A stretch of 64,000 nucleotides of DNA from NCBI GenBank assembly GCA_964016885.1, contig OZ024764.1, forward strand, positions 26,970,001 to 27,034,000, written 5' to 3'. Source of the DNA: Eledone cirrhosa (Eukaryota). The position numbers and the translations under genes were made by a program. Positions 3,006 to 44,669 of this stretch are shown in pieces; within the stretch, counting starts at the first letter, position 1; the number at the start of each line of letters is the position of its first letter. The notes beneath the pieces are model-generated. The model did no database searches and was not told the DNA's origin. It saw nothing but the letters and a program-made list of their open reading frames with translations.

Positions 3006-3034
3006 CTTTAGACAGAATATCTATCACTGTTAAG

Positions 3035-3247: not shown

Positions 3248-3328
3248 AGAGGTTTCCCAGTGCTCCTCGCGATACTGTTATCTTTTGCTCTAGTAGCAGC
3301 TCGTTTGTCCACCCCTTTCGCCTGCCTT

Positions 3329-4398: not shown

Positions 4399-4500
4399 AA
4401 GCGGGGAAAAGTGGATGTATAATGATGATGATATATATATATATGCCCCACCCTTGCAAACAGGGAAAAGCAGACGTAAAATGAAAATGATGATATATAT
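4399..4500 (+). mobile_element. Isolated RTE LINE 3' tail (duplicated tail with (ATG)n)
   Basis: Matches 47923-48020 immediately downstream of the RTE ORF; another copy at ~55645-55745. Confidence 0.75.
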
Positions 4501-4894
4501 ATAGATATGTATATATATATATTTATACTTATACGTCATGGTGGCTACAGGTGCCAAGAGGAAGAAGCCGGTCAAATCCTCTGATATTTGTTTATCTTCC
4601 TTTCCTTTGTATATATATATATAGTATGTGTGTGTGTATGAAGATGTATGACCCCTAGCAAGCCAAACTACAGTTACTCCCCAACATGGAGAGCAAATTA
4701 AAACATTACCTGTTAGAGACGAACGTGAAATGATTTGTTAGTGAACTACCGGTGTCACAGTAATTATGTTACCGGTGTAACTATTTCTGTTTACCTTATT
4801 TTTAAATGACACTCCTATATTAGTTTAGTGACCTTTCAATTCAAATAAATTCTTGATGATGATTGAACTCGCATCGGAGTAGCCCAACGCCTTG

Positions 4895-5225
4895 GCCTCC
4901 GCGTGTGTGAGCCACATAAATGCTCTCAACGACATAGTGAGAAGAAGCCTGGACGCAGCTGAATTTCCATCTCAACTGGAGTCAGCAGGCTTAGGCCGCG
5001 GAGATGGCAAGCACCCCGAGGGAATCACCCTCTTCCCATTCGAAGGAGGTAGATCCACAAACCCCAGCATCGCTGCCCGTCTCGCAGATGAACATAAAAT
5101 AAACAAATTCCGGTGTTTGTCCTGGAGCCTCTTCTAAGCACCAGCCGCCGTCGAGACCCCGGGCCAACTTGGACCCATTACAGCCGAGCTCCTCCGCAAC
5201 ATCGCAGTGTCTGTGGCCCGTCTGA
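4895..5225 (+). pseudogene. CRE/NeSL-like retrotransposon RLE-domain remnant, lineage 2
   Basis: HINALNDIVRRSLDAAEFPSQLE(S/P)AGLGRGDGKHPEGITLFPFEGGR..AARLADEHKINKF..ETPGQLGP resembles the RH.ALND..EP.GL.R.DGKRPDG motif. Confidence 0.8.
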
Positions 5226-5393
5226 GGATGGAGTCCCACGAGGTTGGATGCCTGTTGCAGCAGGTGTTACTGTCCTTACATATATATACGTAAATGTTCC
5301 CTTGACTGCTATTTCTAGCATATATTAATAGACACTTTAGAAACAGCAGCTAAAAATCAAGAAACAACAGTGTGTGTCTGTATATATATACAC

Positions 5394-5394
<1 letters not shown>

Positions 5395-5487
<93 letters not shown>

Positions 5488-5558
5488 AGCCAAAGACACG
5501 AACATACACATACACACAGGTGTATGTCTGCGTGTATGTATATATATGTGTGTGTCTT

Positions 5559-5620
<62 letters not shown>
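5395..5620. repeat. (GA)n, (CA/TG)n, (CT)n and (TA)n microsatellite cluster with hairpin-like symmetry
   Basis: Read directly; length-variable copies at ~49735-49918 and ~56636-56830. Confidence 0.9.
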
Positions 5621-7647
5621 GTCAGTGATCCCCCTCGCAACCTTTAATTAACCAAACCTGCGATGAGGCGATGATCAAAATAAACACCAAAGTATAAACA
5701 AACAGCCCATAGGTGCTGCCGGATACACGATAACATGTGTAGACGAAGTAAAACTTTTATTACTGTAATATAAAGTAGAAACCCTTTATTTAAACAAAGC
5801 TGCGATGCAGCGATGATCAAAACAAACTTCAAATAACATGTGTATACGAAGTGTATCTGGAAGCTTGGTCGTATTATATGACTTTCAAATTGACCCCTAT
5901 TATATTCAAATTATCCCCTGTGGGGCGTGCACCCCACGTTGAGAATCCCTCATAAATAAATATATGTGAGTGTGTTGCTATGACTGCTATTTCTAGCAGG
6001 TTTACTGCAGTCCTGTAGACGCACAACAAAAACCGGAAGTGGCAGCCATTAAAAAACTTTGGCTTAAAATCAGGCAAAAGTTTTTTAACAATTTGCCAAG
6101 AAAGATAACTCTTGTCTTACTTAATCGCAAAAATCGAGGCAAAAATTTTGTGGGTGTACAGTTTGTTTGGTGTATTTGACTGCTATTTCTAGCATGTATG
6201 GACACTTTAGAAATAGCAGCGAAAAACGGAAAACAGCAGAAAGAAGGACACACACCTATATATATATATATATATACCAGCTATACACTCACCCATACAT
6301 ATATATATATACCAGCTATACACACACCCATATCTACGTATAGGTGTGTGTGCGCGCGTGTATGTATATATAAATATATATATTTAAATGTATATATCTG
6401 TGCATATATATATGTATATATATATACGTGTGTGTCCTTCTTTCTTATGTTTCCCGTGTTTCGCTGCTATTTCTAAAGTGTCCATATATGCTAGAAATAG
6501 CAGTCAAATACACCAAACAAACTGCACACCCGCAAAATTTTTTGCCTCGATTTTTGCGATTAAGTAAGACAAGAGTTATCTTTCTTGGCAAATTGTTAAA
6601 AAACTTTTGCCTGATTTTAAGCCAAAGTTTTTTAATGGCTTCCACTTCCGGTTTTTGTTGTGCGTCTACAGGACTGCAGTAAACCTGCTAGAAATAGCAG
6701 TCATAGCAACACACTCACATATATTTATTTATGAGGGATTCTCAACGTGGGGTGCACGCCCCACAGGGGATAATTTGAATATAATAGGGGTCAATTTGAA
6801 AGTCATATAATACGACCCAACTCCCTGTTACACTTCGTATACACATGTTATCGTGTATCTGGCAGCACCTGCGAGAAGTTTGTTTACATTTTGGGGTTTG
6901 CTTTGATGATCGCTGCATCTCAGCTTTGTTTAAATAAAGGGTTTCTACTTTATATTACAGTAATAACACTTTTACAAGACTCGGATTGTTTTTATATTAA
7001 AGGGGGACATGTTTTTTAAACTCTGAACTCAGCATCTTTCTGTTGTTCTCCGGGATTCTAGCAAAGTATAAAAAAAAATATATATATATAGATATATATA
7101 TATATATCTGGCAGTCAACCTCAGACTCGAAAAAGCCGCCGCTAATCGTGATCGTTGGGGTTATAATTCGACTAAAGTGCTTCCACTGGGCACCATTAGC
7201 TGGTTGTGATCATTGGAGAATTCTTTCTGCGCTGAAAGAGCCTAGGACTAAAAGATATATATATAGATGTCGAAACGGCAGTAGCACAGCCGTTGGGGTC
7301 CTGAATATTTTCACATCTATATATGTGTGTGTATTCTGCGACATTTATAATTACATAAGCAAGCATATTTGAATAACAAAATTTGAGGTTTAAATACTTT
7401 ATTTTTTACCAATAACATAGAGAAAGGCATGAACAACACCACATGTTAATTACTTTAATATTGAAAGTAGGCTTATAAATATTAAAAAAGCAGATGCTTG
7501 TATCGTTCATGGTGGTCTGGTGGGTGATACCAGAGATGGTGGTAGTCATGGTTTCGGTTTCAATCCTGGTCATGGGTTACATATAAGGTCTCATTTTTCT
7601 TTCTTTCAGTTTTCTTCTTATCTCTAGATATAAATATATATACATAA

Positions 7648-7755
7648 GGTAATTTGGTAGAATTGTTAGAACATCAGATAGAATTCTTTGCAGTATTTTT
7701 CCAGTTCTTTACTCTGAGTTCAACTTTACCTTTCTTCCATTCGGTGTCGATAAGT
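7648..7755 (+). mobile_element. Degenerate tRNA-derived SINE (octopus-type)
   Basis: GGTAATTTGGTAGAATTGTTAG...CTGAGTTCAA..CTTT.CCTTTC.TCCATTCGGTGTCGATAA resembles the better-preserved copy at 12320-12482; further copies near 10343, 59263, 61770. Confidence 0.55.
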
Positions 7756-8449
7756 CTTGAATATGTCTAACGTAGCAATAACTGGAGCTACTTAACCAAG
7801 TTTTCCCAACCTAGTCGATGTCACCTACTGGTTGGCGATTTAAACTGTTGGCTGGGACAATGACCAACTAATCAGTCAGATTCCAACTCACTATGTCTGG
7901 CATATATTTTATATTTTATATTTGAATGAAGTTCTGTAAGTAACCTGGTGGCTTAGATGGCAATACTGCTCGAATAGATGGCTTCTATTATGAAGTTATA
8001 AGTTCATTCCCTATCCAGGATTGTAGAATTAATTTTATTTAGTTATTATTTAATCAATTGTTTTAACAAACAAATTATATCTATAAAACGCCAAATATAG
8101 TGAGTTCAAATCTGACTGACATGCATGGTATATATTTATGTTTCATTATACAGCGACACAATACACAGGAACTTATAAAGATATGTATATATTGTCCAGG
8201 AGTTTCGAGTTTAGTGGGAATTGGTACAACTCTCAATTGGAGCTAGTCCCTGCAAGATCAGCATAAATAATGTTATACCTTTTCATGAAATCTTGCACAC
8301 CCGATATTTTATACATGATTATTTAAAGGTGAACAAAAACCAAAGAACATTGTGCAGCATTTCTCAACCTTTCTACCCATGTCGATCTCTTGAAATAGTT
8401 TTTATGTCTCAGGGAAGCCCTGCATAAAATATACTTTTTCTATCTCTAG

Positions 8450-8500
8450 AGCAGTGGTTCCCAAATCGTGTGCTGCGAGATGAAACAAGATGAGCTGCAA
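8450..8500. mobile_element. hAT-like terminus
   Basis: TAGAGCAGTGGTTCCCAAA; a similar end CAGTGGTCCCCAAACTTTT lies at 4216. Confidence 0.5.
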
Positions 8501-8599
8501 AAGACTAAGATTAAGTTTTAAGATGTGAAAAATATAAAACTGAAATTTCATATAAAAGTACAAATATAGCTACAGCCACAAACCTAGGCTCCACACCCC

Positions 8600-8800
8600 G
8601 CAATGCAGAGGATAGTAAGATAGTACCAAGGCCTGACTCACCTCTTCCACTCCATTGAGACCTCTGCCATACTTGGTCCCTGTACTGCTGATTTCCTCCA
8701 TAAAGTCGGGAGGAAAGACAACAGGAGCCTCATGAGGAGGGGCAACTATTGTAGCAGGTGTCTCTGGCCTTGTTCCGAGGTAACGCTTTTACGTTTCTTC
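8600..8800 (+). pseudogene. 3' end of a CRE/NeSL-like retrotransposon, lineage 3
   Basis: YQGLTHLF..SIETSAILGPCTADFLHKVGRK..LL*QVSLALFRGNAF with frameshifts; copies at ~11295, ~60215, ~62706. Confidence 0.65.
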
Positions 8801-9039
8801 CACAGGTTGCGGCTGAGGGACCACTTAGACTGGGGTGAAGTGTCTGTCCCTCCCCCGACTTCTTACTTCTTTTTTTTTCTCCTTTTCATTTTCTTTTCTC
8901 TTCTTGCTTATCTCTGCTATACCACGGCATCAAAAACATATATAATATGTGTATGTATGGTATAGGTGTATTTATATTTAGGATAGTTATCAAAGGTAAA
9001 TAGACTGGTTGGAGCAATAACAGTCTTGTTTATGTATAT

Positions 9040-9086
<47 letters not shown>

Positions 9087-9187
9087 TGTTCTTGTATTTC
9101 CATAGAAAAGGTAAAGAAAAGAAGAATGCTATATATATTGTACAGAGCTATTTAATTACATAATAAACAACAGAATATAATTATTCC

Positions 9188-9439
9188 ATGCAAATAGACT
9201 TAGACTGGAAAACATTCAGACAGAGAAGAATGGATAATGAGCGTCGTAAGAGAAATTGCCAACAATTAATATTAATGGAAATGTAGAAGGATTTCATATT
9301 AGTGATATGAATGTTTCGTGTGATCACTGTGGAGCTTTGAAATTTAGAAATGAAAATTGTAACTGTTGTAATAAAGGAAAGGTTATGTTGCCACCATTGC
9401 AAATATACCCTGAGAGACTGAGAAATCTCTTTGAAAGAG
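9188..9439 (+). pseudogene. Helitron 5' fragment (CxxC..CC zinc-finger region) truncated by a snap-back hairpin
   Basis: MNVSCDHCGALKFRNENCNCCNKGKVMLPPL..PERLRNLF is a typical Helitron N-terminus. Confidence 0.85.
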
Positions 9440-9460
9440 ATTTCTCAGTCTCTCAGGGTA

Positions 9461-10260
9461 TATATTCCCGCCGGTGAAATAAAAATTTTAATAGAAAAAC
9501 GGCGGGAATATATGTTACAACCCAACCTACATATTTTTGGGCTGTAACATATATTCCCGCCGTTGAAATAAATATTTTAATAGAAAAACGGCGGGAATAT
9601 ATGTTACAACCCAATCTATATATATTTGAGTTGTAACATATATTCCCGCCGTTGAAATAAAAATGTTAATAGAAAAACGGCGGGAATATATGTTACAACG
9701 CAATCTATATATATTTGGGTTGTAACATATATTCCCGCCGTTGAAATAAAAATTTTAATAGAAAAACGGCGGGAATATATGTTACAACCCAACCTACATA
9801 TGTTTGGGTTGTAATATATATTCCCGCCGTTTTTCTGTTAAAATTTTTATTTCAACGGCGGGAATATATGTTACAACCCAAATATATGTAGATTGGGTTG
9901 TAACATATATTCCCGCCGTTTTTCTATTAAAATTTTTATTTCGACGGCGGGAATATATGTTACAACCCAAATATATATAGATTGCGTTGTAACATATATT
10001 CCCGCCGTTTTTCTATTAAAATTTTTATTTCAACGGCGGGAATATATGTTACAACCCAAATATATGTACATTGGATTGTAACATATATTCCCGCCGTTTT
10101 TCTATTCAAATTTTTATTTCAACGGCGGGAATATATGTTACAACTCAAATATATATAGATTGGGTTGTAACATATATTCCCGCCGTTTTTCTATTAAAAT
10201 TTTTATTTCACCGGCGGGAATATGTTACAACCCAAATATATATATATTGAGTTGTAACAT
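9461..10260. repeat. 89-bp palindromic (dumbbell) tandem array, 4 units with loops in one orientation then 5 inverted
   Basis: Unit is 28-bp arm + 22-nt spacer + inverted 28-bp arm + 11-nt spacer; starts at 9461, 9550, 9639, 9728; loop inverted from ~9817. Confidence 0.95.
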
Positions 10261-11849
10261 GGGTTACATATAAGGTCTCATTTTTTTTCTTTTCTTTCTT
10301 TCAGTTTTCTTCTTATCTCTAGATATAAATATATATACATGAGGTAACTTGGTAGAATTGTTAGAACATCAGATAGAATTCTTTGCAGTATTTTTCCAGT
10401 TCTTTACTCTGAGTTCAACTTTACCTTTCTTCCATTCAGTGTCGATAAGTCTTGAATATGTCTAACGTAGCAATAACTGGAGCTACTTAACCAAGTTTTC
10501 CCAACCTAGTCGATGTCACCTACTGGTTGGCGATTTAAACTGTTGGCTGCGACAATGACCAACTAATCAGTCAGATTCGAACTCACTATGTCTGGCATAT
10601 ATTTTATATTTTATATTTGAATGAAGTTCTGTAAGTAACCTGGTGGCTTAGATGGCAATACTGCTCGAATAGATGGCTTCTATTATGCAGTTATAAGTTC
10701 ATTCCCTATCCAGGATTGTAGAATTAATTTTATTTAGTTATTATTTAATCAATTGTTTTAACAAACAAATTATATCTATAAAACGCCAAATATAGTGAGT
10801 TCAAATCTGACTGACATGCATGGTATATATTTATGTTTCATTATACAGCGACACAATACACAGGAACTTATAAAGATATGTATATATTGTCCAGGAGTTT
10901 CGAGTTTAGTGGGAATTGGTACAACTCTCAATTGGAGCTAGTCCCTGCAAGATCAGCATAAATAATGTTATACCTTTTCATGAAATCTTGCACACCCGAT
11001 ATTTTATACATGATTATTTAAAGGTGAACAAAAACCAAAGAACATTGTGCAGCATTTCTCAACCTTTCTACCCATGTCGATCTCTTGAAATAGTTTTTAT
11101 GTCTCAGGGAAGCCCTGCATAAAATATACTTTTTCTATCTCTAGAGCAGTGGTTCCCGAATCGTGTGCTGCGAGATGAAACAAGATGAGCTGCAAAAGAC
11201 TAAGATTAAGTTTTATGATGTGAAAAATGTAAAGCTGAAATTTCATATAAAAGTTCAAATATAGCTACAGCCACAAACCTAGGCTCCACACCCCGCAATG
11301 CAGAGGATAGTAAGATAGTACCAAGGCCTGACTCACCTCTTCCACTCCATTGAGACCTCTGCCATACTTGGTCCCTGTACTGCTGATTTCCTCCATAAAG
11401 TCGGGAGGAAAGATGACAGGAGCCTCATGAGGAGGGGCGACTATTGTAGCAGGTGTCTCTGGCCTTGCTCCGAGGTAACGCTTTTACGTTTCTTCCACAG
11501 GTTGCGGCTGAGGGACCACTTAGACTGGGGTGAAGTGTCTGTCCCTCCCCCGACTTCTTACTTCTTTTTTTTTCTCCTTTTCATTTTCTTTTCTCTTCTT
11601 GCTTATCTCTGCTATACCACGGCATCAAAAACATATATGATATATGTATGTATGGTATAGGTGTATTTATATTTAGGATAGTTATCAAAGGTAAATAGAC
11701 TGGTTGGAGCAATAACAGTCTTGTTTATGTATATACATATATATATATATTTATATGTTTGTTCTTGTATTTCCATAGAAAAGGTAAAGAAAAGAAGAAT
11801 GCTCTATGTATTGTACAGAGCTATTTAATTACATAATAAACAACAGAAT

Positions 11850-12590
11850 GGAAAACATTCAGACAGAGAAGAATGGATAATGAGCGTTGTAAGAGAAATT
11901 GGCCAACAATTAATATTAATGGAAATGTAGAAGAATTTCATATTAGTGATATGAATGTTTCGTGTGATCACTGTGAAGCTTTGAAATTTAGAAATGAAAA
12001 TTGTAACTGTTGTAATAAAGGAAAGGTTGTGTTGCCACCATTGCAAATATACCCTGAGAGACTGAGAAATCTCTTTGAAAGAGGCCAGGAAGCAGTTGAT
12101 TTCACAGAAACATCTGCAATTAAAACTACATTTATTTCACTTCATTTGGTGTTACCACCCGGCAGAGGCCCGTATAGCTTTCATATTCAGGGTCAAACAT
12201 ATCACTACACCCCCATCTCTGTAACCTGCAGAAAATACACCACAATATGGCCAGTTATATATTATTGATGGGAACGAAGGTATGTAGCACAGATTGGAAG
12301 TACGTCCAAATAATTGTTTCTAGCACAAGGCCAGCAATTACTGGTACTTTATTCTATCGACCTAATAAGGATGAAAACAAAGTCAACCTTGGAGGGATTT
12401 GAACCCAGAACGTAAAGGGACATAACCCTATGCTGTAAAGCATGGTGTCTGGCGCTCTACCGATACTGCCAATCCACTGCCCTAGTACCAACAAATAATG
12501 ACTGCTCACCACAAAAAATGGCTATGATAAGAGAAGTGTTGCATGAATGTAATTCATATGTCGAAGTGTACAATACAATGCATGGCATCA
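11850..12590 (+). pseudogene. Helitron RepHel 5' part, interrupted at 12590
   Basis: CDHCEALKF..CCNKGKV..GRGPYSFHIQGQTYH..QLYIIDG..IREVLHECN.YVEVY; ends at CATGGCATCA, whereas uninterrupted copies continue AACAGC. Confidence 0.9.
12320..12482 (-). mobile_element. tRNA-derived SINE (octopus OK/OR-like) inserted in the Helitron
   Basis: Minus strand has A box TGGCAGTATCGG, B box GGGTTCAAATCC and tail GGTCGATAGAATAAAGTACCAG; degenerate TSD AGTAC..CAAATAAT on both sides; the same insertion is in the other Helitron copies that reach this point. Confidence 0.8.
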
Positions 12591-12594
12591 CAAA

Positions 12595-12629
<35 letters not shown>

Positions 12630-13199
12630 TACTAAAAGTATGTAAAATTTTAAAATAAATACTTAAATTCAATTTGTATAATTACACATACAATATGTTT
12701 TGTTGTAAAACCCTAAATAATGATTTAAGAAATGATGTCAATCTCTTTGTACAGAGAAAAACAATTTATATATATGCATTGTGTGCGCGTGTATACTCCA
12801 TTTAAGACAGTGAAAAACCTAGTACCTCCTTCAAAGAATGCCAAATAGTTTATGCCTAAGGTGTAACACTAATTAAGTTACCGGTGTAGATATTTCAGTT
12901 GAACCCTGCTTCAAACATGCATATTATTATTATATATTTTCAAACACACTTACATACATTATATTTATACACATAGAAATAATAAGTTAAAACTAAAGTA
13001 TAATGATATAACAACAGTATATAATAGTTTTCTTCACTTTATTGAAATGCAATCGTTTTAAAGAAAAAACATGACAGTATAAGAAATATTTAATATGATA
13101 ACATAATATTTCAGGTAGGATGGTCGTTTCAATATGATGGTGGTTTCTCTTTGAACTAATAATTGTTTCTATTTTAGGCACAAGGTCAGTAATTAACCA

Positions 13200-13330
13200 G
13201 TACATTACTGGTACTTTATTTTATCGACCCCGTAAGGATGAAAGGCAAAGTTGACCTCGGATCGTAAAGGGACGTAACTATGCTGGAAAGCATGGCGTCA
13301 GACCCTCTACCGATACTGCCAATTCACCAT
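13200..13330 (-). mobile_element. tRNA-derived SINE, same family, B-box region deleted
   Basis: TACTGGTACTTTATTTTATCGACCCCGTAAGGATGAAAGGCAAAGTTGACCTCGG...CTACCGATACTGCCAA. Confidence 0.8.
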
Positions 13331-13519
13331 ACAGTATAATTATACAAATATGCATATAGATAGCAATATATATACACTAATATGTATGTACATATTTACA
13401 CATATGTACATATATATAGGGAGAGAGAGAGACACATGTATGTATATATATATACACATGCGTGTATGCATGTGTGTTTATGTACATTCTTCGGTATATA
13501 TATCGGTATACACATTGGA

Positions 13520-13800
13520 GACACAGAGAGAGAGAGTTGAAACGAGAGGTGAGAGAGTTGAAACAAGAGAGGAGATGGTTGAAACACGAGGAGAGAGAGA
13601 GAGTTGAAACGAGAGGAGAGAGAGAGAGTTGAAACGAGGAGAGAGTTGAAACAAGAGGGTGAGGGGAGAGAGGAAGAGAGAGAGAGAGAGGAAGAGAGAG
13701 AGAGGGGATGAGAGAGAGGAATAGAGATAGAGGGGAAGAGAGAGAGGGGGAGAGAAGGGGATGAAACAACAGAGAGAGGGGAGAGAAAGAGAGAGGGGAT

Positions 13801-13841
<41 letters not shown>

Positions 13842-16800
13842 ATTGAAACAAGAGAGAGATGAAACAAGTGAGGGATTAGAGAGAGATGAAACAAGTGAGG
13901 GATTAGAGTGTTGAAACAAGAGAGAGAGAGCGAGATGAAATGAGAGAAAGAGAGTGAGATGAAATGAGAGAGTGGGAGCGAGATGAAACGAGACAGGGAG
14001 AGCGAGATGAAATGAGAGAGTTAGAGTGAGATGAAACGAGAGAGTGAGAGCGAGATGAAACGAGAGACAGAGAGAGCGAGATGACACGAGACAGAGAGCG
14101 AGATGAAATGAGAGAGAGAGAGTGAGAGAGAGAGATGAAACGAGAGAGAGAGTGCGAGATGAAACGAGAGTGAGAGAGCGAGATGAAACGAGAGAGTGAG
14201 AGCGAGATGAAATGAGAGAGAGAGAGAACGAGATGAAATGAGAGAGAGAGAGAGCGAGATGAAATGAGACATAGAGAGATGAAACGAGAGAGAGATGAAA
14301 CGAGAAAGAGAGGAAACGAGAGAGAGGAAACGTGAGTAGAGAGCGAGATGAAACAGGAGCGAGAGAGCGAGATGAAACGAGAGGGAGAGAGAGATGAAAC
14401 GAGAGCGAGAGAGAGATAGAGGGAAATGAAACGTCAGAGAGAGAGACAGATGAAACGAGGGATATAGAGATGAAACGAGAGAGAGAGATGAAACGAGAGA
14501 GAGGAAGAGAGAGATAGAACGAGAGAGAGGAAGAGAGAGATGAAACGAGAGAGAAGAAGACAGAGGTGAAACGAGAGAGAGAGCGAGATGAAACGAGAGA
14601 GAGAGCGAGATGAAACGAGAGAGAGAGCGAGATGAAACGAGAGAGAGGAAGAGAGAGAGCGAGAGATGAAACTCTGTCATGGACATATCTGACCCTGGGG
14701 CTAATAATTGTCATGTAATGTTATGGACATCTCTGCCCCTGTGGCTAATAATTCTGTCATGTAATGTTATGGACATCTCTGCCCCTGTGGCTAATAATTC
14801 TGTCATGTAATGTTATGGAAATCTCTGCCCCTGTGGCTAATAATTCTGACATGTAATGTTATGGAATCTCTGCCCCTGTGGCTAATAAATCTGTCATTTG
14901 ATGTTACGGACATCTCTGCCCCTGTGGCTAATAAATCTGTCATGTAATGTTATGGACATCTCTGCCCCTGTGGCTAATAATTCTGACATGTAATGTTATG
15001 GACATCTCTGCCCCTGTAGCTAATAATTCTGACATGTAATGTTATGGACATCTCTGCCCCTGTGGCTAATAAATTCGTCATGTAATGTTATGGACATCTC
15101 TGCCCCTGTGGCTAATAAATCTGTCATGTAATGTTATGGACATCTCTGCCCCTGTGGCTAATAATTCTGACATGTAATGTTATGGACATCTCTGCCCCTG
15201 TGGCTAATAATTCTGACATGTAATGTTATGGACATCTCTGCCCCTGTGGCTAATAATTCTGAGAGAGATGAAACAAGTGAGGGATTAGAGAGAGATGAAA
15301 CAAGTGAGGGATTAGAGTGTTGAAACAAGAGAGAGAGAGGAAGAGAGAGTGAGAGCGAAATCAAACGAGAGAGAGCGAGATGAAATGAGAGAGTGAGAGC
15401 GAGATGAAACGAGAGAGAGAGAGAGAGCGAGATGAAATGAGAGAGAGAGAGCGAGATGAAATGAGAGAGAGAGAGAGCGAGATGAAACGAGACAGAGAGA
15501 GCGGGATGAAACGAGACAGAGAGAGCGAGAGCGAGATGAAACGAGACAGAGAGAGCGAGATGAAACGAGAGAGAGAGAGCGAGATGAAATGAGAGAGAGA
15601 GAGCGAGATGAAATGAGAGAGAGAGAGCGAGATGAAACGAGAGAGTGAGAGCGAGATGGAACGAGACAGAGAGAGCGAGATGAAACGAGAGTGGGAGAGC
15701 TAGATGAAACGAGAGAGAGAGGAAATGAGAGAGACGAAACGAGAGAGAGGAAACGAGAGTAGAGAGCGAGATGAAACAGGAGAGAGAGAGCGAGATGAAA
15801 CAGGAGCGAGAGAGCGAGATGAAACGAGAGGGAGAGAGAGATGAAACGAGAGAGCGAGAGAGAGATAGAGGGAGATGAAACGACAGAGAGAGAGACAGAT
15901 GAAACGAGGGCGATAGAGATGAAACGAGAGAGAGAGATGAAACGAGAGAGAGGAAGAGAGAGATGGAACGAGAGAGAGGAAGAGAGAGATGGAACGAGAG
16001 AGAGGAAGACAGAGATGAAACGAGAGAGAGAGAGAGCAAGATGAAACGAGAGAGAGAGATGAAACGAGAGAGAGGAAGAGAGAGATGGAACGAGAGAGAG
16101 GAAGAGAGAGATGGAACGAGCGAGAGGAAGACAGAGATGAAACGAGACAGAGAGAGATCGAGATGAAACGAGAGAGAGGAAGAGAGAGAGCGCAAGATGA
16201 AACGAGAGAGAGATAGAGAGCGAGATGAAACGAGAGAGAGGAAGAGAGAGAGCGCGAGATGAAACGAGAGAGAGGAAGAGAGAGAGAGCGCGAGATGAAA
16301 TGAGAGAGAGAGAGAGCGAGATGAAATGAGAGATTGAGAGTGAGATGAAACGAGAGAGTGAGAGAGAGCGAGATGAAATGAGAGAGAGAGAGAGCGAGAT
16401 GAAATGAGAGAGAGAGAGCGAGATGAAACGAGACAGAGAGAGCGGGATGAAACGAGACAGAGAGATCGAGATGAAATGAGAGAGAGAGAGCGAGATGAAA
16501 TGAGAGAGAGAGAGCGAGATGAAACGAGAGAGTGAGAGCGAGATGAAACGAGTCAGAGAGAGCGAAATGAAACGAGAGAGTGAGAGCTAGATGAAACGAG
16601 AGAGAGAGGAAACGAGAGAGAGAGGAAACGAGAGAGAGGAAACGAGAGAGAGGAAACGAGAGTAGAGAGCAAGATGAAACAGGAGAGAGAGAGAGCGAGA
16701 TGAAACCGGAGAGAGAGAGCGAGATGAAACGAGAGGGAGGGAGAGATGAAACGAGAGAGCGAGAGAGAGATAGAGGGAGATGAAACGAGAGAGTGATAGC

Positions 16801-34700: not shown

Positions 34701-37700
34701 CGCGCTCTCTCTCTCTCGATTCATCTCGCGCTCTCTCTCTCTCGTTTCATCTCGCTCTCTCTCTCTCTCGTTTCATCTCTGTCTTCCTCTCTCGCGTTCC
34801 ATCTCTCTCTTCCTCCCTCTCTTCCTCTCTCTCGTTTCATCTCTATCTCCCTCGTTTCATCTCTCTCTCCCTCTCGTTTCATCTCGCTCTCTCTCTCCTG
34901 TTTCATCTCGCTCTCTACTCTCGTTTCCTCTCTCTCGTTTCCTCTCTGTCTCGTTCCATCCCGCTCTCTCTCTCTCTCATTACATCTCGCTCTCTCTGTC
35001 TCGTTTCATCTCGCTCTCTCTCTCTCTCGTTTCATCTCGCTCTCACTCTCTCGTTTCATCTCGCGTTTCATCTCACTCTCCCTGTCTCATTTCACCTCGC
35101 TCTCTCTCTCTCTTCCTCTCTCTCTCTTGTTTCAACACTCTAATCCCTCACTTGTTTTATCTCTCTCTAATCCCTCACTTGTTTCATCTCTCTCAGAATT
35201 ATTAGCCACAGGGGCAGAGATGTCCATAACATTACATGTCAGAATTATTAGCCACAGGGCAGAGATGTCCATAACATTACATGTCAGAGTTATTAGCCAC
35301 AGGGGCAGAGATGTCCATAACATTACATGTCAGAATTATTAGCCACGGGGGCGGAGACGTCCATAACATTACATGACAGAATTATTAGCCACAGGGGCAG
35401 AGATGACCATAACATTACATGACAATTATTAGCCACAGGGGCAGATATATCAATAACATTACATGATAGAGTTTCATCTCGCGCTCTCTCTCTCTCTCGT
35501 TTCATCTTGCTCTCTCTCTCTCTCGTTTCATCTCTGTCTTCCTCTCTCTCGTTCCATCTCTCTCTTCCTCTCTCTCGTTCCATCTCTCTCATCCTCTCTC
35601 TCGTTTCATCTCTATCTCCCTCCTTTCATCTGTCTCTCTCTGTCGTTTCATCTCGTGCTCTCTCTCTCTCGTTTCATCTCGCGCTCTCTCTGTCTCGTTT
35701 CATCTCGCTCTCTCTCTCTCTCGTTTCATCTCTGTCTTCCTCTCTCACGTTCCATCTCTCTCTTCCTCTCTCTCGTTCCATCTCTCTCTTCCTCTCTCTC
35801 GTTTCATCTCTATCTCCCTCGTTTCATCTCTCTCTCGCTCTCTCGTTTCATCTCTCTCTCCCTCTCGTTTCATCTCGCTCTCTACTCTCGTTTCCTCTCT
35901 CTCGTTTCCTCTCTGTCTCGTTCCATCCCGCTCTCTCTCTCTCACATTACATCTCGCTCTCTCTGTCTCGTTTCATCTCGCTCTCTCTCTCTCTCGTTTC
36001 ATCTCGCTCTCACTCTCTCGTTTCATCTCGCTTCTCTCACTATTGCGTTTCATCTCGCTCTCCCTGTCTCATTTCATCTCGCTCTCTCTCTCTCTCTTCC
36101 TCTCTCTTGTTTCAACACCCTAATCCATCACTTGTTTTATCTCTCTCTAATCCCTCACTTGTTTCATCTCTCTCAGAATTATTAGCCACAGGGGCAGAGA
36201 TGTCCATAACATTACATGTCAGAGTTATTAGCCACAGGGGCAGATATGTCCATAACATTACATGACAGAGTTTCATCTCGCGCTCTCTCTCTCTCGTTTC
36301 ATCTCGCGCTCTCTCTCTTCCTCTCTCTCGTTTCATCTCGCTCTCTCTCTCTCTCGTTTCACCTCTGTCTTCCATCTCTCTCTTCCTCTCTCTCGTTCCA
36401 TCTCACTCTTCCTCTCTCTCATTTCATCTCTCTCTCTCGTTTCATCTCTATCTCTCTCTCTCGTTTCATCTGTCTCTCTCTCTGTCGTTTCATCTCCCTC
36501 TATCTCTCTCTCCCTCTCGTTTCATCTCGCTCTCTCTCTCCTGTTTCATCTCGCTCTCTCTCTCTCCTGTTTCATCTCGCTCTCTACTCTCGTTTCCTCT
36601 CTCTCTCCCTCCTGTTTCATCTCGCTCTCTCTCTCTCGTTTCATCTCGCTCTCACTCTCTCGTTTCATCTCGCTCTCTCTCTGTCTCGTTCCATCTCGCT
36701 CTCTCTCTCTCATTTCATCTCTCTCTCTCTCTCTCATTTCATCTCGCTCTCTCTCTCTCGTTTCATCTCGCTCTCACTCTCTCGTTTCATCTCGCTCTCA
36801 CTCTCTCGTTTCATCTCGCTCACACTCTCTCATTTCATCTCGCTCTCTCTCTCTTCTTTCAACACTCTAATCCCTCACTTGTTTCATCTCTCTCAGAATT
36901 ATTAGCCACAGGGGCAGAGATGACCATAACATTACATGTCAGAATTATTAGCCACAGGGGCAGAGATGTCCATAACATTACATGTCAGAATCATTAGCCA
37001 CAGGGGCAGAGATGTCCATAACATTACATGACAGAATTATTAGCCACAGGGGCAGAGATGACCATAACATTACATGACAATTATTAGCCACAGGGGCAGA
37101 TATGTCAATAACATTACATGACAGAGTTTCATCTTGCGCTCTCTCTCTCTCTCGTTTCATCTTGCGCTCTCTCTCTCTCTCGTTTCCTCTCGCTCTCTCT
37201 CTCTCGCGTTTCATCTCTGTCTTCCTCTCTCTCGTTCCATCTCTCTCTTCCTCTCTCTCGTTCCATCTCTCTCTTCCTCTCTCTCGTTTCATCTGTCTCT
37301 CTCTTTGTCGTTTCATCTCGCGCTCTCTCTCTCTCGTTTCATCTCGTGCTCTCTCTCTCTCATTTCATCTCGCTCTCTCTCTCTCTCGTTTCATCTCTGT
37401 CTTCCTCTCTCTCTTCCTCTCTCTCGTTCCATCTCTCTCTTCCTCTCTCTCGTTTCATCTCTATCTCCCTCGTTTCATCTCTCTCTCGCTCTCTCGTTTC
37501 ATCTCTCTCTCCCTCTCGTCTCATCTCGCTCTCTCTCTTCTGTATCATCTCGCTCTCTACTCTCGTCTCCTCTCTGTCGTTTCCTCTCTGTCTCGTTTCA
37601 TCTCGCTCTCCCTGTCTCATTTCATCTCGCTCTCTCTCTCTCTCTTCCTCTCTGTCTCTTGTTTCAACACTCTAATCCCTCACTTGTTTTATCTCTCTCT

Positions 37701-40700
37701 AATCCCTCACTTGTTTCATCTCTCTCAGAATTATTAGCCACAGGGGCAGAGATGTCCATAAAATTACATGTCAGAGTTATTAGCCACAGGGGCAGAGATG
37801 TCCATAACGTTACATGACAATTATTAGCCCCAAGGGCAGATATGTCCATAACATTACATGACAGAGTTTCATCTCGCGCTCTCTCTCTCTCGTTTCATCT
37901 CGCGCTCTCTCTCTTCCTCTCTCTCGTTTCATCTCGCTCTCTCTCTCTCTCGTTTCACCTCTGTCTTCCATCTCTCTCTTCCTCTCTCTCGTTCCATCTC
38001 ACTCTTCCTCTCTCTCATTTCATCTCTCTCTCTCGTTTCATCTCTATCTCTCTCTCTCGTTTCATCTGTCTCTCTCTCTGTCGTTTCATCTCCCTCTATC
38101 TCTCTCTCCCTCTCGTTTCATCTCGCTCTCTCTCTCCTGTTTCATCTCGCTCTCTCTCTCTCATGTTTCATCTCGCTCTCTCTCTCTCCTGTTTCATCTC
38201 GCTCTCTACTCTCGTTTCCTCTCTCTCTCCCTCCTGTTTCAGCTCGCTCTCTCTCTCTCATTTTATCTCGCTCTCTCTCTCTCATTTCATCTCGCTCTCT
38301 CTCTCTCGTTTCATCTCGCTCTCACTCTCTCGTTTCATCTCGCTCTCACTCTCTCGTTTCATCTCGCTCTCCCTGTCTCGTTTCATCTCGCTCACACTCT
38401 CTCATTTCATCTCGCTCTCTCTCTCTTCTTTCAACACTCTAATCCCTCACTTGTTTCATCTCTCTCAGAATTATTAGCCACAGGGGCAGAGATGTCCATA
38501 ACATTACATGTCAGAATCATTAGCCACAGGGACAGAGATGTCCATAACATTACATGACAGAATTATTAGCCACAGGGGCAGAGATGACCATAACATTACA
38601 TGACAATTATTAGCCACAGGGGCAGATATGTCAATAACATTACATGACAGAGTTTCATCTCGCGCTCTCTCTCTCTCTCGTTTCATCTTGCGCTCTCTCT
38701 CTCTCGTTTCCTCTCGCTCTCTCTCTCTCTCGTTTCATCTCTGTCTTCCTCTCTCTCGTTCCATCTCTCTCTTCCTCTCTCTCGTTCCATCTCTCTCTTC
38801 CTCTCTCTCGTTTCATCTGTCTCTCTCTCTGTCGTTTCATCTCGCGCTCTCTCTCTCTCGTTTCATCTCGCGCTCTCTCTCTCTCATTTCATCTCGCTCT
38901 CTCTCTCTCTCGTTTCATCTCTGTCTTCCTCTCTCTCTTCCTCTCTCTCGTTCCATCTCTCTCTTCCTCTCTCTCGTTTCATCTCTATCTCCCTCGTTTC
39001 ATCTCTCTCTCGCTCTCTCGTTTCATCTCTCTCTCCCTCTTGTTTCATCTCGCTCTCTCTCTTCTGTTTCATCTCGCTCTCTCTCTTCTGTTTCATCTCG
39101 CTCTCTACTCTCGTCTCCTCTCTGTCGTTTCCTCTCTGTCTCGTTTCATCTCGCTCTCCCTGTCTCATTTCATCTCGCTCTCTCTCTCTCTCTTCCTCTC
39201 TGTCTCTTGTTTCAACACTCTAATCCCTCACTTGTTTTATCTCTCTCTAATCCGTCACTTGTTTCATCTCTCTTAGAATTATTAGCCACAGGGGCAGAGA
39301 TGTCCATAACATTACATGTCAGAATTATTAGCCACAGGGCAGAGATGTCCATAACATTACATGTCAGAATTATTAGCCACAGGGCAGAGATGTCCATAAC
39401 ATTACATGTCAGAATTATTAGCCACAGGGGCAGAGATGTCCATAACATTACATGACAGAGTTTCATCTCGCTCTCTCTCTCTCTCGTTTCATCAGTGTCT
39501 TCCTCTCTCTCGTTCCATCTCTCTCTTGCTCTCTCTCGTTCCATCTCTATCTTCATCTCTCTCGTTTCATCTCTATCTCCCTCCTTTCATCTGTCTCTCT
39601 CTCTGTCGTTTCATCTCGCGCTCTCTCTCTCTCTCGTTTCATCTCGCGCTCTATCTCTCTTTCTCTCTCTCGTTTCATCTCTATCTCCCTCGTTTCATCT
39701 GTCTCTCGCTCTCTCGTTTCATCTCTCTCTCCCTCTCGTTTCATCTCGCTCTCTACTCTCGTTTCCTCTCTCTCGCGTTCCATCCCGCTCTCTCTCTCTC
39801 TCATTACATCTCGCTCTCTCTGTTTCGTTTCATCTCGCTCTCTCTCTCTCTCTCGTTTCATCTCGCTCTCACTCTCTCGTTTCATCTCGCTTCTCTCACT
39901 CTCGTGTTTCATCTCGCTCTCCCTGTCTCATTTCATCTCGCTCTCTCTCTCTCTTCCTCTCTCTCTCTTGTTTCAACACTCTAATCCCTCACTTGTTTTA
40001 TCTCTCTCTAATCCCTCACTTGTTTCATCTCTCTCAGAATTATTAGCCACAGGGGCAGAGATGTCCATAACACTACATGTCAGAATTATTAGCCACAGGG
40101 CAGAGATGTCCATAACATTACATGTCAGAATTATTAGCCACAGGGGCAGAGATGTCCATAACATTACATGACAGAATTATTAGCCACAGGGGCAGAGATG
40201 TCCATAACATTACATGTCAGAATTATTAGACACAGGGCAGAGATGTCCATAACATTACATGTCAGAATTATTAGCCACAGGGGCAGAGATGTCCATAACA
40301 TTACATGTCAGAATTATTAGCCACAGGGGCCGAGATGTCCATAACATTACATGAAAGAATTATTAGCCACAGGGGCAGAGATGTCCATAACATTACATGA
40401 CAGAATTATTAGCCACAGGGGCAGAGATGTCCATAACATTACATGACAATTATTAGCCCCAAGGGCAGATATGTCCATAACATTACATGACAGAGTTTCA
40501 TCTGGCGCTCTCTCTCTTCCTCTCTCTCGTTTCATCTCTGTCTTCCTCTCTCTCTTCCTCTCGCTCGTTCCATCTCTCTCTTCCTCTCTCTCGTTTCATC
40601 TCTATCTCCCTCCTTTCATCTGTCTCTCTCTCTGTCGTTTCATCTCGCGCTCTCTCTCTCTCGTTTCATCTCGCGCTCTCTCTCTCTCGTTTCATCTCGC

Positions 40701-41412
40701 GCTCTCTCTCTCTCGTTTCATCCCTCTCTTGTTTCATCTCTGTCTTCCTCTCTCTCGTTCCATCTCTCTCTTCCTCTCTCTCGTTTCATCTCTATCTCCC
40801 TCGTTTCATCTCTCTCTCCCTCTCGTTTCATCTCGCTCTCTCTCTCCTGTTTCATCTCGCTCTCTACTCTCGTTTCCTCACTCTCGTTTCCTCTCTCTCT
40901 CGTTTCCTCTCTGTCTCGTTCCATCCCGCTCTCTCTCTCTCTCATTACATCTCGCTCTCTCTGTCTCGTTTCATCTCGCTCTCTCTCTCTCTCGTTTCAT
41001 CTCGCTCTCACTCTCTCGTTTCATCTCGCTTCTCTCACTCTCGCGTTTCATCTCGCTCTCCCTGTCTCATTTCATCTCGCTCTCTCTCTCTCTTCCTCTC
41101 TCTCTCTTGTTTCAACACTCTAATCCCTCACTTGTTTTATCTCTCTCTAATCCCCCACGTGTTTCATCTCTCTCAGAATTATTAGCCACAGGGGCAGAGA
41201 TGTCCATAACATTACATGTCAGAATTATTAGCCACAGGGCAGAGATGTCCATAACATTACATGTCAGAATTATTAACCACAGGGGCAGAGATGTCCATAA
41301 CATAACATGACAGAATTATTAGCCACAGGGGCAGAGATGTCCATAACATTACATGACAGAATTATTAGCCACAGGGGCAGATATGTCCATAACATTACAT
41401 GACAGAGTTTCA
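31728..41412 (-). repeat. Composite satellite, inverted (pyrimidine-strand) arm: 10 CT-rich blocks with shorter 46-bp arrays
   Basis: Reverse-complement monomers AGAATTATTAGCCACAGGGGCAGAGATGTCCATAACATTACATGAC and GTTTCATCTC(GC)(TC)n. Confidence 0.97.
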
Positions 41413-41574
41413 TCTGGTTGGAGTAATAACAGTCTTGTTTATGTATATACACACATATATACATATATATGTTTGTTCTTGTATTTCTATAGAAAAGGTA
41501 AAGAAAAGAAGAATGCTCTATGTATTGTACAGAGCTATTTAATTACATAATAAACAACAGAATATAATTATTCC

Positions 41575-43782
41575 ATGCAAATAGACTTAGAATGGAAAAC
41601 ATTCAGACAGAGAAGAATGGATAATGAGCGTCGTAAGAGAAATTGGCCAACAATTAATATTAATGGAAATCTAGAAGAATTTCATATTAGTGATATGAAT
41701 GTTTCGTGTGATCACTGTGAAGCTTTGAAATTTAGAAATGAAAATTGTAACTGTTGTAATAAAGGAAAGGTTGTGTTGCCTCCATTGCAAATATACCCCG
41801 AGAGACTGAGAAATCTCTTTGAAAGAGGCCAGGAAGCAGTTGATTTCACAGAAACGTCTGCAATTAAAACTACATTTATTTCACTTCATTTGGTGTTACC
41901 ACCCGGCAGAGGCCCGTATAGCTTTCATATTCAGGGTCAAACATATCAATACACCCCCATCCAAATAATTGTTTCTGGCACAAGGCCAGCAATTACTGGT
42001 ACTTTATTCTATCGACCTCATAAGGATGAAAACAAAGTCAACCTTGGAGGGATTTGAACCCAGAACGTAAAGGGCCATAACCCTATGCTGCAAAGCATGG
42101 TGTCTGACGCTCTACCGATACTGCCAATCCACCGCCCTAGTACCAACAAATAATGAGTGCTCACCACAAAAAATGGCTATGATAAGAGAGGTGTTGCGTG
42201 ATGTAATCCATATGTCGAAGTGTACAATACAATGCATGGCATCAAACAGCAAAGTGCAAGAAGAGAAAATTGTTGTGTACAGAACTGTAAATTAAGATTT
42301 AGAAGAGGATCAGATATGAGCTGCTATAATTTACCAACTAGTAATGATAGCTGTTGTTTTGTGGGGGATTGAGGGCAGACCACCTGTACAAAGAGATATT
42401 ATCATCTTTCCTAAAGACCATCCTCCTCAGAATATATCACATAATTCATGCCACTTGGACCTCATGACCAACCCATAATGGTGAATTTTGGTGGCATAGT
42501 GACATGGAGAGGAATGCAGGACCTGTGTTTGCAATAGACTGACAATGCAGGAGTATTACATATACAGTATAGCATATAGAGGAGGATTTAGTGCGATATA
42601 TAGGGCAGGTAAATTATTTTAGCAGTATTTAGTGGAAGCCTATATGAAAGTAGGGGGATGCAGGCTTCAATATTTGAGGAACAATCAAGCCCAATTGTGA
42701 GTGGATGAGTATAATGGTTTAATGAATTATCTAAACAGATGATAACACTGAGCCTTAAGAAATGAAGACAAGATAAGAAACAGAGAAGACATTGACAGAA
42801 TCGTGTCAGCAGAAATACCTGCATTGGAAGATGATCAAGTACTACATGAGCAGGTTTAAAAGTTTATGATACACGGGCCATGTGGTTCTGGAAACCCTTT
42901 TCCCCCATTTATACAAAATGGATTTTTCCAAAAGAACTATCCAAAAACCTACAGAAGGGAAACATTATTGAACCTAAATGGATACCCAGAGTACAGGAGG
43001 TGCAAGACAGGAACTGCAGTGTAAATTGGATGACATTCAGTAGATAACAGGAATGTTGTGCCACTTAATGCCTTTTTGCTTAAGAAATATTGTGCACATA
43101 TTAATGTTGAAGTTTGCGCTTCTGTAAAAAGTGTCAAGTACCTCTTTAAATATGTTACATGGGGCATGATTGTACATCTATAGAAGTAACGAATAATGCA
43201 TTACCTAATGAGGCTCAGAACCAACACAACCATGATGAAATAAGAACCTATCTTTGTTGCAGGTATGTGTCTCAGCCAGAAGCAGTGTTGTGTCTCTCAG
43301 AATTTAAGCTTCATGGTACATCACATACAGTATACAGCCTAGCCACACACCTGGAGAACAAACAGAGTTTACTTTCAAAGAGGCAATGCTTACACCTTCT
43401 GGGATGCCGCCTCACTAACTCCAATTAAAAGCAGGATCAATAATAATGCTTCTATGGAATATTTCAATCCAGAACAGATTATTTTATTGGCACAAGATTA
43501 GAAGTAGTGGAACTGCATAAACATTTTATCGAAGCTTCTCATATCTATGGTCCTTTGATGGGCAGGTGTGTTTTGATCCGAAGACTGAAGTTAGTTCCCA
43601 GTGGTGCCAACATCCCTTTTACTTTGGAAAGACCCCAGTTTCCATTAAGACTGTCATATGCCATGACAATCAACAAGAACCATGGTCAAATACATGATAA
43701 AGTGGGTCTGTTCCTCCCTGAGCAAGTATTTAACCCTGGACAATTGTATGTTGCTTTTTCAAGAGTTCACAGACAGATGTAA
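41575..43782 (+). pseudogene. Internally deleted Helitron RepHel, uninterrupted by the satellite, with extra small deletions
   Basis: Joins the 5' (ZnF) and 3' (Rep/helicase) parts via GGCATCAAACAGC at ~42238; SINE at ~41975-42137. Confidence 0.9.
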
Positions 43783-44669
43783 AAATTAATCCTAGCAAAC
43801 CCCCACCACTCCTACAACTGTTAGCTGTTAGACCACCCCCAGCACCACCCAACCTCCGTTCTAGTCCCACCGTTAGAACCAATGCTGCTTACCCTGCCTC
43901 TTTTACTAGTTCACTCCTTCGCTCGAATTTCAAAGCTGGCCCTCTACACTTGGTCGTGCTCTCTGTGTCCGCACTAGCCGGTACCTAAACACAATAAAAT
44001 GTCACCTGTGCTACCAAAACTACCACAGGAACTCTGTCGGCATCAGCAAGGCTCAAGCCGAAAGGCTTCAATACTAGACCTGTAATCAGGGCCACTTTAC
44101 CTCCGACGACCAGCTTTCTACCGATTGTGTGTTGATGGAGGGGACATGAGACCAGCAAAGTCCTAGGAGTAGAGACTAGTAAATAATAAACGGTCCTAGC
44201 TATGTTAAGAAGACAAGAGAAATAAATATTTACCTCTTTCATGTAGGTAATATAGCGGTGTTATAAAAGTAATTATACGACCGGTGTAACAGTCGGTATA
44301 AATGAAAGATGTAGAAATGAAAGTTGCAACAATGACATGAATAAATATACAGTAATTTAATATGAGCAAGAATAAATATTTAATGGAATTAATTAAGTGT
44401 AATTTAATAAGAAATAAGAAATAAGTAAAACAGTAAAAGAAACAATAACAAACAAAATGGAGTCACATAAAATTTGGTTTATCTTTATAAAGCTTATTTT
44501 AAACGCGATTTTCCTTTTAAATCCGTAGCTCCGCTTACTAACCTTAGGGCTGTAACGTTACATGGTTCGAATCTTACACTCTTCTCTATAGTGCCACACG
44601 AGTTATCTCCTAGTCTTTTTATATGGTTTCACTGTTTAGTGAAAGAGGGCGCTACGAACAGTTACTTAT

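What the first reader, a model, noticed from the sequence alone, without database searches (positions are those of the whole stretch)
7571..42244. Recurring architecture at two scales: strand-switching satellite cassette at the junction of a direct duplication, both breaking the Helitron 5' region
Seen: (a) the Helitron stops at 9439, a 0.8 kb 89-mer array with an internal flip follows, and the sequence restarts ~1.9 kb upstream (10258 = 7571). (b) The Helitron stops at 12590, a ~28.8 kb block with an internal inversion follows, and the sequence restarts ~0.9 kb upstream (41413 CTGGTTGGAG = 11700). The junctions show only 2-5 nt microhomology. Two unrelated satellites thus share the same layout within ~0.5 kb of one element. 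Known parallels are FoSTeS/MMBIR template switching and the composite insertions at tandem-duplication junctions made by alternative Ac/Ds transposition in maize. Inference: the Helitron 5' region is a recurrent nick or re-replication site that captures inverted satellite cassettes and drives macro-array growth. For (b), recombination between pre-existing tandem copies is an alternative explanation.
Basis: partly seen in the sequence, partly recalled or inferred. Interest (0 to 1): 0.75.

Follow-up and report, generated by a model that had tools for sequence, protein, structure and literature searches.

The report
Macrosatellite with inherited fold-back repair scars
Both odd layouts are real, but their junctions recur letter for letter in dozens of copies of a giant repeat array built on a dead Helitron transposon on three chromosomes, so each is likely one old repair or replication slip copied as the array grew, not a site that breaks again and again.

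Summary
The recurrent-hotspot reading mostly does not. The window lies in a macrosatellite of roughly 9-13 kb units carrying a dead Helitron, with arrays on contigs 25, 18 and 20. Layout (a) has the same two junctions and one strand switch in 39 of 39 copies. Layout (b) is a composite: a fragment of a second macrosatellite captured once, one fold-back centre (24 of 25 centres), and a re-entry into a Helitron copy lacking the insert (12 of 13). Other units carry the insert with no long inversion and no duplication (11 copies), or with an upstream restart but no inversion (6 copies), so inversion and duplication are not coupled. The breaks lie inside the Helitron's dead reading frame, not at termini. 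Breakpoints are twofold denser there per length, not per copy sampled. No earlier scan note covered this array.

The parts
1..552 (+). End of a short (about 2.6 kb) form of the satellite insert: GA-rich block, 46-mer x6.5, 17-nt filler; the Helitron resumes at 553 exactly at the 12590 site (3-nt TCA overlap), with no duplication and no long inversion
   Evidence: 11 copies with this junction
553..2723 (+). Helitron remnant, 3' part (Rep and Pif1 fragments, many stops) plus downstream sequence
2724..7570 (+). Rest of the macrosatellite unit: 55-mer array, microsatellites, an inverted-repeat segment (5834-6203 mirrored at 6480-6851)
7571..9439 (+). First copy of the 1.87-kb duplicated segment (upstream DNA plus zinc-finger start of the Helitron frame)
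9403..9463 (.). Perfect 29-bp hairpin with 3-nt loop; only 5 bp of the stem are native (CTCTT/AAGAG), 9440-9463 is a 24-nt inverted copy of the sequence just upstream
   Evidence: native sequence at 12034-12109
9460..10260 (.). Tandem of nine MITE cores (78-bp MITE + 11-nt AT spacer); 4 forward, 5 reverse; switch inside the 26-bp inverted repeat at 9804-9829; both ends cut inside the inverted repeat
10258..12590 (+). Second copy of the duplicated segment, continuing into the Helitron frame to the insertion site
12591..13524 (+). Captured, rearranged piece of a second macrosatellite family (6.2-kb unit on contigs 22 and 24, relative on 18), with a SINE-like repeat
13525..31727 (+). Forward arm: alternating GA-rich blocks and 46-mer blocks, with a higher-order period of about 4.9 kb
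31714..31738 (.). Fold-back centre J1: 9-bp arms, 7-nt spacer
   Evidence: 24 of 25 centres are J1 or its reverse complement
31728..41413 (-). Reverse arm of the same composite satellite, shorter blocks, not a mirror image of the forward arm
41414..44211 (+). Re-entry into a Helitron copy that lacks the insert (runs through the 12590 site uninterrupted at 42242-42244); private 87-bp and 55-bp deletions
50538..53686 (+). Helitron copy with neither cassette
59180..63536 (+). Second copy of layout (a) in the window, 7 MITE cores (5 forward, 2 reverse), same two junctions

Best explanation
The window is part of a megabase macrosatellite whose unit carries a dead Helitron, and the two layouts are likely fossils of a handful of single repair or template-switch events that later array growth copied dozens of times. 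Shown: the junctions are shared across copies on three contigs; the 89-mer is a tandem MITE; the insert at 12590 comes from a second macrosatellite; the insert exists with and without inversion and with several exits. Inferred for (a): a broken end at 9439 folded back on a native 5-bp inverted repeat, copied 24 nt, joined a MITE tandem through ATAT and left it through CAT into upstream DNA (polymerase-theta-type end joining or MMBIR, or the same joins made in a 2.69-kb circle that re-integrated by homology); one switch inside the MITE's 26-bp inverted repeat gave the flip; unequal exchange then gave 1-5 cassettes in a row. Inferred for (b): (1) one capture at 12590 with a 3-nt overlap; (2) growth of the GA/46-mer satellite; (3) one fold-back at J1 that copied back through the insert, as still seen on contig 18; (4) secondary joins that shortened the palindrome, one of which (41414) leads into a neighbouring unit without the insert, so the 0.9-kb 'duplication' is simply the next unit's copy. 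Homologous exchange between the inverted arms likely flips the segments between them. The Helitron is a passenger.
For: Cassette with both flanks has 775 first-look candidates, the 40 scored all on contigs 25, 18, 20. Left and right junctions of (a): 39 and 39 in the regions fetched; one forward-to-reverse switch in 39 of 39, 6-15 cores. MITE: 433 first-look candidates, 40 scored on many contigs; 20 of 20 loci inspected match the array unit at 82-91% and lie in TA runs. Insert: all 31 copies form one clade against 3 donor rows (99/98); donor arrays at 89-96%. Centre J1 in 22 of 25, its reverse complement in 2, another in 1. Second switch J3 and junction J6 also occur in both orientations. Full fold-back through insert and Helitron piece: 8 J6 copies plus one variant on contig 18, all with insert-linked alleles. 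Exit at 41414: 13 copies, 12 continue into an uninserted copy; 11 tested group with uninserted units (97/93). Insert with exact resumption and no long inversion: 11 copies; upstream restart (8104-equivalent) without inversion: 6 of 10 copies. About 110 residues around the QKRGLPH nuclease motif and the helicase core are missing. Snap-back model: PMC2943611 (passages); palindrome erosion: PMC10766186 (passages).
Against: Distinct breakpoints are about twice as dense in the Helitron 5' region per unit length (29 of 67, P 0.004; 26 of 64, P 0.015 after three more rows were dropped). Two independent joins from the reverse arm land 92 bp apart, on either side of an (AT)n tract. The insert tree is a polytomy, so the order 'exact insertion first, upstream restart later' rests on parsimony only, and the older restart gives a 1.84-kb duplication, close to the 1.87 kb of (a). 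Helitron-region haplotypes are mosaic: 2 of 11 exit copies start with insert-type alleles, so later crossovers could hide a same-molecule re-entry. No free MITE tandem that could be the donor of (a) was seen.
Confidence: 0.8

Rival explanations
1. Local fragility not caused by the Helitron enzyme: the (AT)n tract and hairpin-prone sequence near the start of the Helitron frame stall forks, so independent joins land there more often than elsewhere in the unit. This can coexist with the best explanation.
For: Twofold excess by length; exits at 41414-type and J6 flank the (AT)n tract 92 bp apart; further private joins at the tract edge.
Against: No excess when weighted by copies sampled (26 of 64 vs 47% expected, P 0.89; 14 of 64 vs 22%, P 0.53); both ends of a deletion were counted; loci were chosen for features in this region; joins starting in the unstable satellite would land nearby anyway.
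Confidence: 0.25
2. One reading: a recurrent Helitron nick or re-replication site captures inverted satellite cassettes with flanking duplications and drives array growth.
For: Two unrelated repeats were captured 507 bp apart; the oldest-looking restart gives 1.84 kb of duplication versus 1.87 kb in (a); the genome holds Helitrons with long open frames that could act in trans.
Against: One origin per junction; 11 copies with exact resumption; 6 with restart but no inversion; 8 where the inversion runs on as a plain fold-back; breaks inside the coding remnant; restart 7571 lies in DNA that is continuous in a 77%-identical relative and lacks the T of a TC end; no hairpin-plus-CTRR end among 5 candidates after the frame.
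Confidence: 0.06
3. Rolling-circle concatemers of a truncated Helitron (many 5' parts, one 3' part) made the repeated 2.69-kb units.
For: Runs of up to 5 cassettes of the 5' part before one 3' part on contig 18 look like the arrays described by Xiong et al. (seen only as summarised in PMC12628747).
Against: The restart is not at a recognisable 5' terminus; runs vary from 0 to 5 cassettes among near-identical units, as unequal exchange predicts; array edges fall inside modules.
Confidence: 0.07
4. Assembly artefact (chimeric or hairpin reads).
For: Inverted arms in repeats are a known failure mode (recalled); no read was shown to bridge a junction here.
Against: Same junctions on three contigs with contig-specific substitutions; reverse arm is not a mirror of the forward arm; no N in the 464 kb around the window.
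Confidence: 0.02

Closest known systems
Snap-back synthesis-dependent MMEJ (Yu and McVey 2010, PMC2943611; passages read)
   Same: Short inverted primer repeat beside the break, inverted templated copy, new microhomology used for the join: matches 9403-9463.
   Different: Here it is a fixed germline fossil, joined to foreign repeat DNA rather than to the other break end; enzyme dependence untested.
Inverted triplication / ODIRA with secondary palindrome erosion (Brewer et al. 2024, PMC10766186; passages read)
   Same: One near-perfect palindromic junction, a second widely spaced junction, later joins that shorten an arm; matches J1, J6 and the exit at 41414.
   Different: Occurs inside a nested satellite of a macrosatellite and was then amplified; need for an origin not testable.
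Transposon-derived satellites, including MITE-derived ones (reviews PMC9659126 and PMC12628747; passages read)
   Same: Tandem repeat derived from a MITE; shuffled loci of Helitron parts and tandem arrays in differing orientations are reported in oyster.
   Different: The unit is the whole MITE plus its TA spacer, whereas the Xenopus cases in those passages use internal parts; my one search for whole-MITE tandems was swamped by unrelated hits, so no claim of absence is made.
Helitron rolling-circle tandem arrays (Xiong et al. 2016, seen only via PMC12628747; Xenopus arrays in PMC12001565, passages)
   Same: Repeated 5' parts before one 3' part; tandem units holding Helitron sequence.
   Different: Restarts are not at a terminus, unit holds much non-Helitron DNA, no recognisable ends.
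Alternative Ac/Ds transposition composite insertions (recalled, no paper read)
   Same: Inserted DNA at the junction of a direct duplication.
   Different: No transposon terminus at any junction; the MITE tandem is cut inside its inverted repeat on both sides.

Membership tests
Macrosatellite / complex tandem array | Kilobase units in tandem over hundreds of kb with high identity | tested here: met
   464 kb continuous on contig 25 fully made of the modules at mostly 93-100%; arrays on contigs 18 and 20; contig 25 arrays at about 26.46-27.96 Mb (+) and 28.63-29.05 Mb (-), 9 of 9 samples between them empty
Helitron | RepHel homology | tested here: met
   tblastn to PF14214-positive loci, E down to 3e-25; Pif1_2B_dom E 1.3e-6 in 1 of 6 pieces scanned
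Helitron | Intact nuclease motif and helicase core (autonomy) | tested here: not met
   24 residues here vs about 137 in a relative across the QKRGLPH region; helicase core absent; many stops
Helitron | 5' TC and 3' hairpin plus CTRR termini | tested here: not met
   No hairpin next to any of 5 CTRR-T sites after the frame; 7571 is spanned by a 77% relative; true 5' end not located
Helitron rolling-circle concatemer | Each repeat restarts at the 5' terminus | tested here: not met
   Restarts at 7571, 8104, 9005 and 9097 equivalents, none shown to be a terminus
MITE (Tc1/mariner type; superfamily label recalled) | Short, non-coding, terminal inverted repeats, dispersed copies | tested here: met
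   About 78 bp, 26-28-bp inverted repeats; 40 scored matches on many contigs; 20 of 20 loci 82-91% to the array unit
MITE (Tc1/mariner type; superfamily label recalled) | TA target-site duplication | tested here: inconclusive
   Copies sit in (TA)n runs, so a TA duplication fits but cannot be told from the run
MITE (Tc1/mariner type; superfamily label recalled) | Autonomous partner with matching ends | not tested
   No search made
Snap-back SD-MMEJ junction | Primer inverted repeat, inverted templated insert, microhomology at its end | tested here: met
   5-bp native stem, 24-nt extension, ATAT overlap
Snap-back SD-MMEJ junction | Polymerase theta dependence | not testable with these tools
   Needs genetics
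Inverted triplication (ODIRA-type) | Two strand-switch junctions, one near-palindromic | tested here: met
   J1 (9-bp arms, 7-nt spacer) and J6 or J3
Inverted triplication (ODIRA-type) | Replication origin inside the amplified segment | not testable with these tools
   No origin map
Alternative-transposition composite insertion | Transposon termini at the junctions | tested here: not met
   MITE tandem begins at base 13 and ends at base 12-15 of the inverted repeat; insert ends are internal to the donor unit

The most novel reading that the evidence does not exclude
Two independent captures of foreign repeats, 0.5 kb apart, each originally flanked by a direct duplication of about 1.85 kb (1.87 kb for the MITE tandem, 1.84 kb for the satellite's older exit), with the 12590 site cut a second time to give the exact-resumption form: a site-specific break-and-recopy process of set length acting on this Helitron region, whose captured inverted arms then work as flip-flop switches that reorient parts of megabase arrays.
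Probability: 0.07. Interest if true: 0.65.

Novelty: new member of a known kind. Interest (0 to 1): 0.27.

Why it matters
As found, it is an ordinary but well-preserved record of how a complex macrosatellite evolves: a snap-back repair scar, a satellite made of whole MITEs, capture of DNA from another macrosatellite, a fold-back and its erosion, and junctions present in both orientations, all readable because intermediates survive in neighbouring units. It is also a caution: repeated layouts inside an array are copies, not repeats of an event. It would matter more if de novo breaks proved to cluster at these sites, since that would give a testable cause of array growth.

Tried and rejected
Read support: 11 public runs hold part of the stretch, 4 of them half or more of its words, in 2 studies; one may be the source of the assembly. 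No RNA holder listed. Four runs were laid on a 5.1-kb stretch: one run had depth in 30 of 30 bins, but the joint table was swamped by a SINE-like repeat and no listed piece bridged a junction with 31 letters on both sides; no verdict. The idea that the satellite insert is a transposon with a 3-bp target duplication was dropped: no inverted ends, and its left end lies inside a donor macrosatellite unit. A third exit on contig 18 (25 Mb) proved to be the older exit plus an internal deletion. The idea that the MITE tandem flips freely at many points was dropped: one switch in 39 of 39. Dispersed close relatives of this Helitron were not found, because the 40 scored hits were all array copies and the 30 PF14214 loci are other families; its true ends remain unknown. 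The insert tree did not order the exits. Pfam found nothing in 5 of 6 Helitron pieces. The earlier-findings look-ups gave nothing near this place or for this sequence. Supplements of papers were not read; none bears on a count here.
Full report
Observation. Self-alignment of the window confirms both layouts. 7571-9439 recurs from 10258 at about 97%, with nine 89-mers between. The Helitron match stops at 12590, a GA-rich/46-mer satellite runs forward to 31727 and reverse to 41413, and 41414 aligns with 11700. The window also holds a second copy of layout (a) at 59180-63536, a Helitron copy with no cassette at 50538-53686, and at 553 a satellite end after which the Helitron resumes exactly at the 12590 site. 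These already suggest that the window is part of an array.

Context. The window is contig 25, 26.97-27.03 Mb of a 3.0-Gb genome; earlier scan notes call the genome probably octopus, which I did not test. I annotated 200 kb on each side with modules cut from the window: all 464 kb are made of the same modules. Arrays of the same unit lie on contig 18 (34.9-35.8 Mb, an older variant at 25.0-25.1 Mb), contig 20 (26.8-27.35 Mb) and as a fragment on contig 1. Contig 25 has two arrays in opposite orientation with 9 of 9 empty samples between. Genome-wide exact counts: 662 MITE cores, 4327 matches to a 32-letter piece of the 46-mer, 177 to a 24-letter piece of the insert, donors included.

The Helitron. 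Translation gives RepHel fragments with many stops; tblastn to PF14214-positive loci reaches E 3e-25 and 1 of 6 pieces hits Pif1_2B_dom. The stretch that holds the QKRGLPH nuclease motif in relatives is 24 residues here against about 137, and the helicase core is missing. Both breaks, 9439 and 12590, lie inside this coding remnant. 7571 is not a shown terminus: a 77%-identical relative runs across it and the restart lacks the T of the TC there; none of 5 CTRR sites after the frame has a hairpin beside it. The element cannot cut itself, and Helitrons are known (recalled; also PMC12628747 passages) to start and stop at their ends.

Layout (a). The left edge is a perfect 29-bp hairpin at 9403-9463 of which only 5 bp are native; 24 nt are an inverted copy ending in ATAT, which is also the start of the array. 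This is the signature of snap-back synthesis-dependent end joining (PMC2943611, passages); the enzyme is inferred. The 89-mer is not an unrelated satellite monomer but a 78-bp MITE plus an 11-nt AT spacer: a solo copy on contig 13 led to 433 first-look candidates, 40 scored, on many contigs; 20 of 20 loci inspected have the inverted repeats, lie in TA runs and match the array unit at 82-91%. The flip falls inside the 26-bp inverted repeat, so it needs only homology. In the regions fetched there are 39 left and 39 right junctions, every cassette has one forward-to-reverse switch and 6-15 cores, and the 2.69-kb unit stands in runs of up to 5 cassettes. One origin followed by unequal exchange explains this; template switching and re-integration of a circle cannot be told apart.

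Layout (b). The first 0.9 kb of the block is a rearranged piece of another macrosatellite with a 6.2-kb unit on contigs 22 and 24 and a relative with a GA block on contig 18; the left join has CA microhomology with that donor, and all 31 copies in the tree form one clade against 3 donor rows (99/98). Exits from the satellite: exact resumption with a 3-nt overlap and a 17-nt filler, 11 copies, no long inversion (15 letters at this join match the reverse complement of nearby DNA); restart at the 8104 equivalent, 10 copies, 6 without any inversion; restart at the 11700 equivalent from the reverse arm, 13 copies; and on contig 18 a full fold-back that runs on through the insert and 0.85 kb of Helitron before switching again (J6), 8 copies plus a variant. 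Of 25 centres read, 22 are J1, 2 its reverse complement, 1 a different join. J3 and J6 also occur in both orientations, which is what exchange between inverted arms produces (inference). After the 41414-type exit, 12 of 13 copies run through the insertion site uninterrupted; re-copying of the same molecule would have met the insert again. The 11 such copies in the tree group with uninserted units (97/93; the window's own copy and one other with the 87-bp deletion fell below the length filter), while J6 copies carry insert-linked alleles. Haplotypes are mosaic, so later crossover is not excluded. The picture fits an inverted triplication eroded by secondary joins (PMC10766186, passages). The order of exact insertion versus upstream restart is not resolved by the tree; exact insertion first needs no coincidence.

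Hotspot test. Against one real 9.4-kb unit, 1.204 Mb of non-overlapping sequence gave 108 clusters of alignment ends; 67 remained after masking tandem and simple repeats and an N gap. 29 of 67 fell in the Helitron 5' region, 13.3 versus 6.6 per kb, P 0.004. After dropping two ends of a deletion private to the reference unit and one microsatellite edge, 26 of 64: P 0.015 by length, P 0.89 by copies sampled, since this region is present about twice as often. Ends of one deletion are not independent and loci were chosen for features in this region. A modest local fragility is not excluded; a Helitron-specific nick site has no support.

Reads. Artefact is unlikely because the same joins carry contig-specific substitutions on three contigs and the reverse arm is not a mirror copy.

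Verdict. Real features, known kinds of mechanism, single origins amplified by array growth. The shared layout at two scales is a resemblance between a compound event (a) and a multi-step history (b), not a recurring process. New member of a known kind; interest 0.27.

Noticed in passing
L151-L178 (contigs 16, 19, 20 at 3.5-5.2 Mb, 27 at 13-15.5 Mb): A different Helitron is present in at least 27 near-identical copies (98-99.5% over 3.5 kb), often 100-150 kb apart, some with a 1036-aa open frame: probably another, larger multi-chromosome segmental array or a young family.
   Followed up: partly
L181-L200 (contig 22 at 16.45, 17.73, 18.2 and 30.53-30.69 Mb; contig 24): A second macrosatellite family with a 6.2-kb unit, donor of the insert at 12591.
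   Followed up: partly
L201-L220 (contig 18, 35.02-35.79 Mb): Runs of about 22-kb units made almost only of inverted satellite arms joined by a 1.8-kb spacer that occurs in both orientations.
   Followed up: partly
window 44212-47900: Broken non-LTR retrotransposon remnant with reverse-transcriptase motifs in translation (RTE-like label recalled, no family scan), part of some array units.
   Followed up: no
window 5834-6975 and 57046-58600: Another inverted duplication inside the unit, with several derived forms among copies.
   Followed up: no
L120 (contig 7, 42.17 Mb): An isolated 2.6 copies of the 46-mer amid unrelated sequence: escaped fragment or source.
   Followed up: no
window 2724-2885 and 53687-54164: 55-mer minisatellite whose copy number varies from 3 to over 30 between units.
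   Followed up: no
window 13525-31727: Three nested repeat levels: 46-mer and GA motifs, 1-2 kb blocks, a 4.9-kb higher-order period at 97.7%; block patterns differ between arrays.
   Followed up: partly
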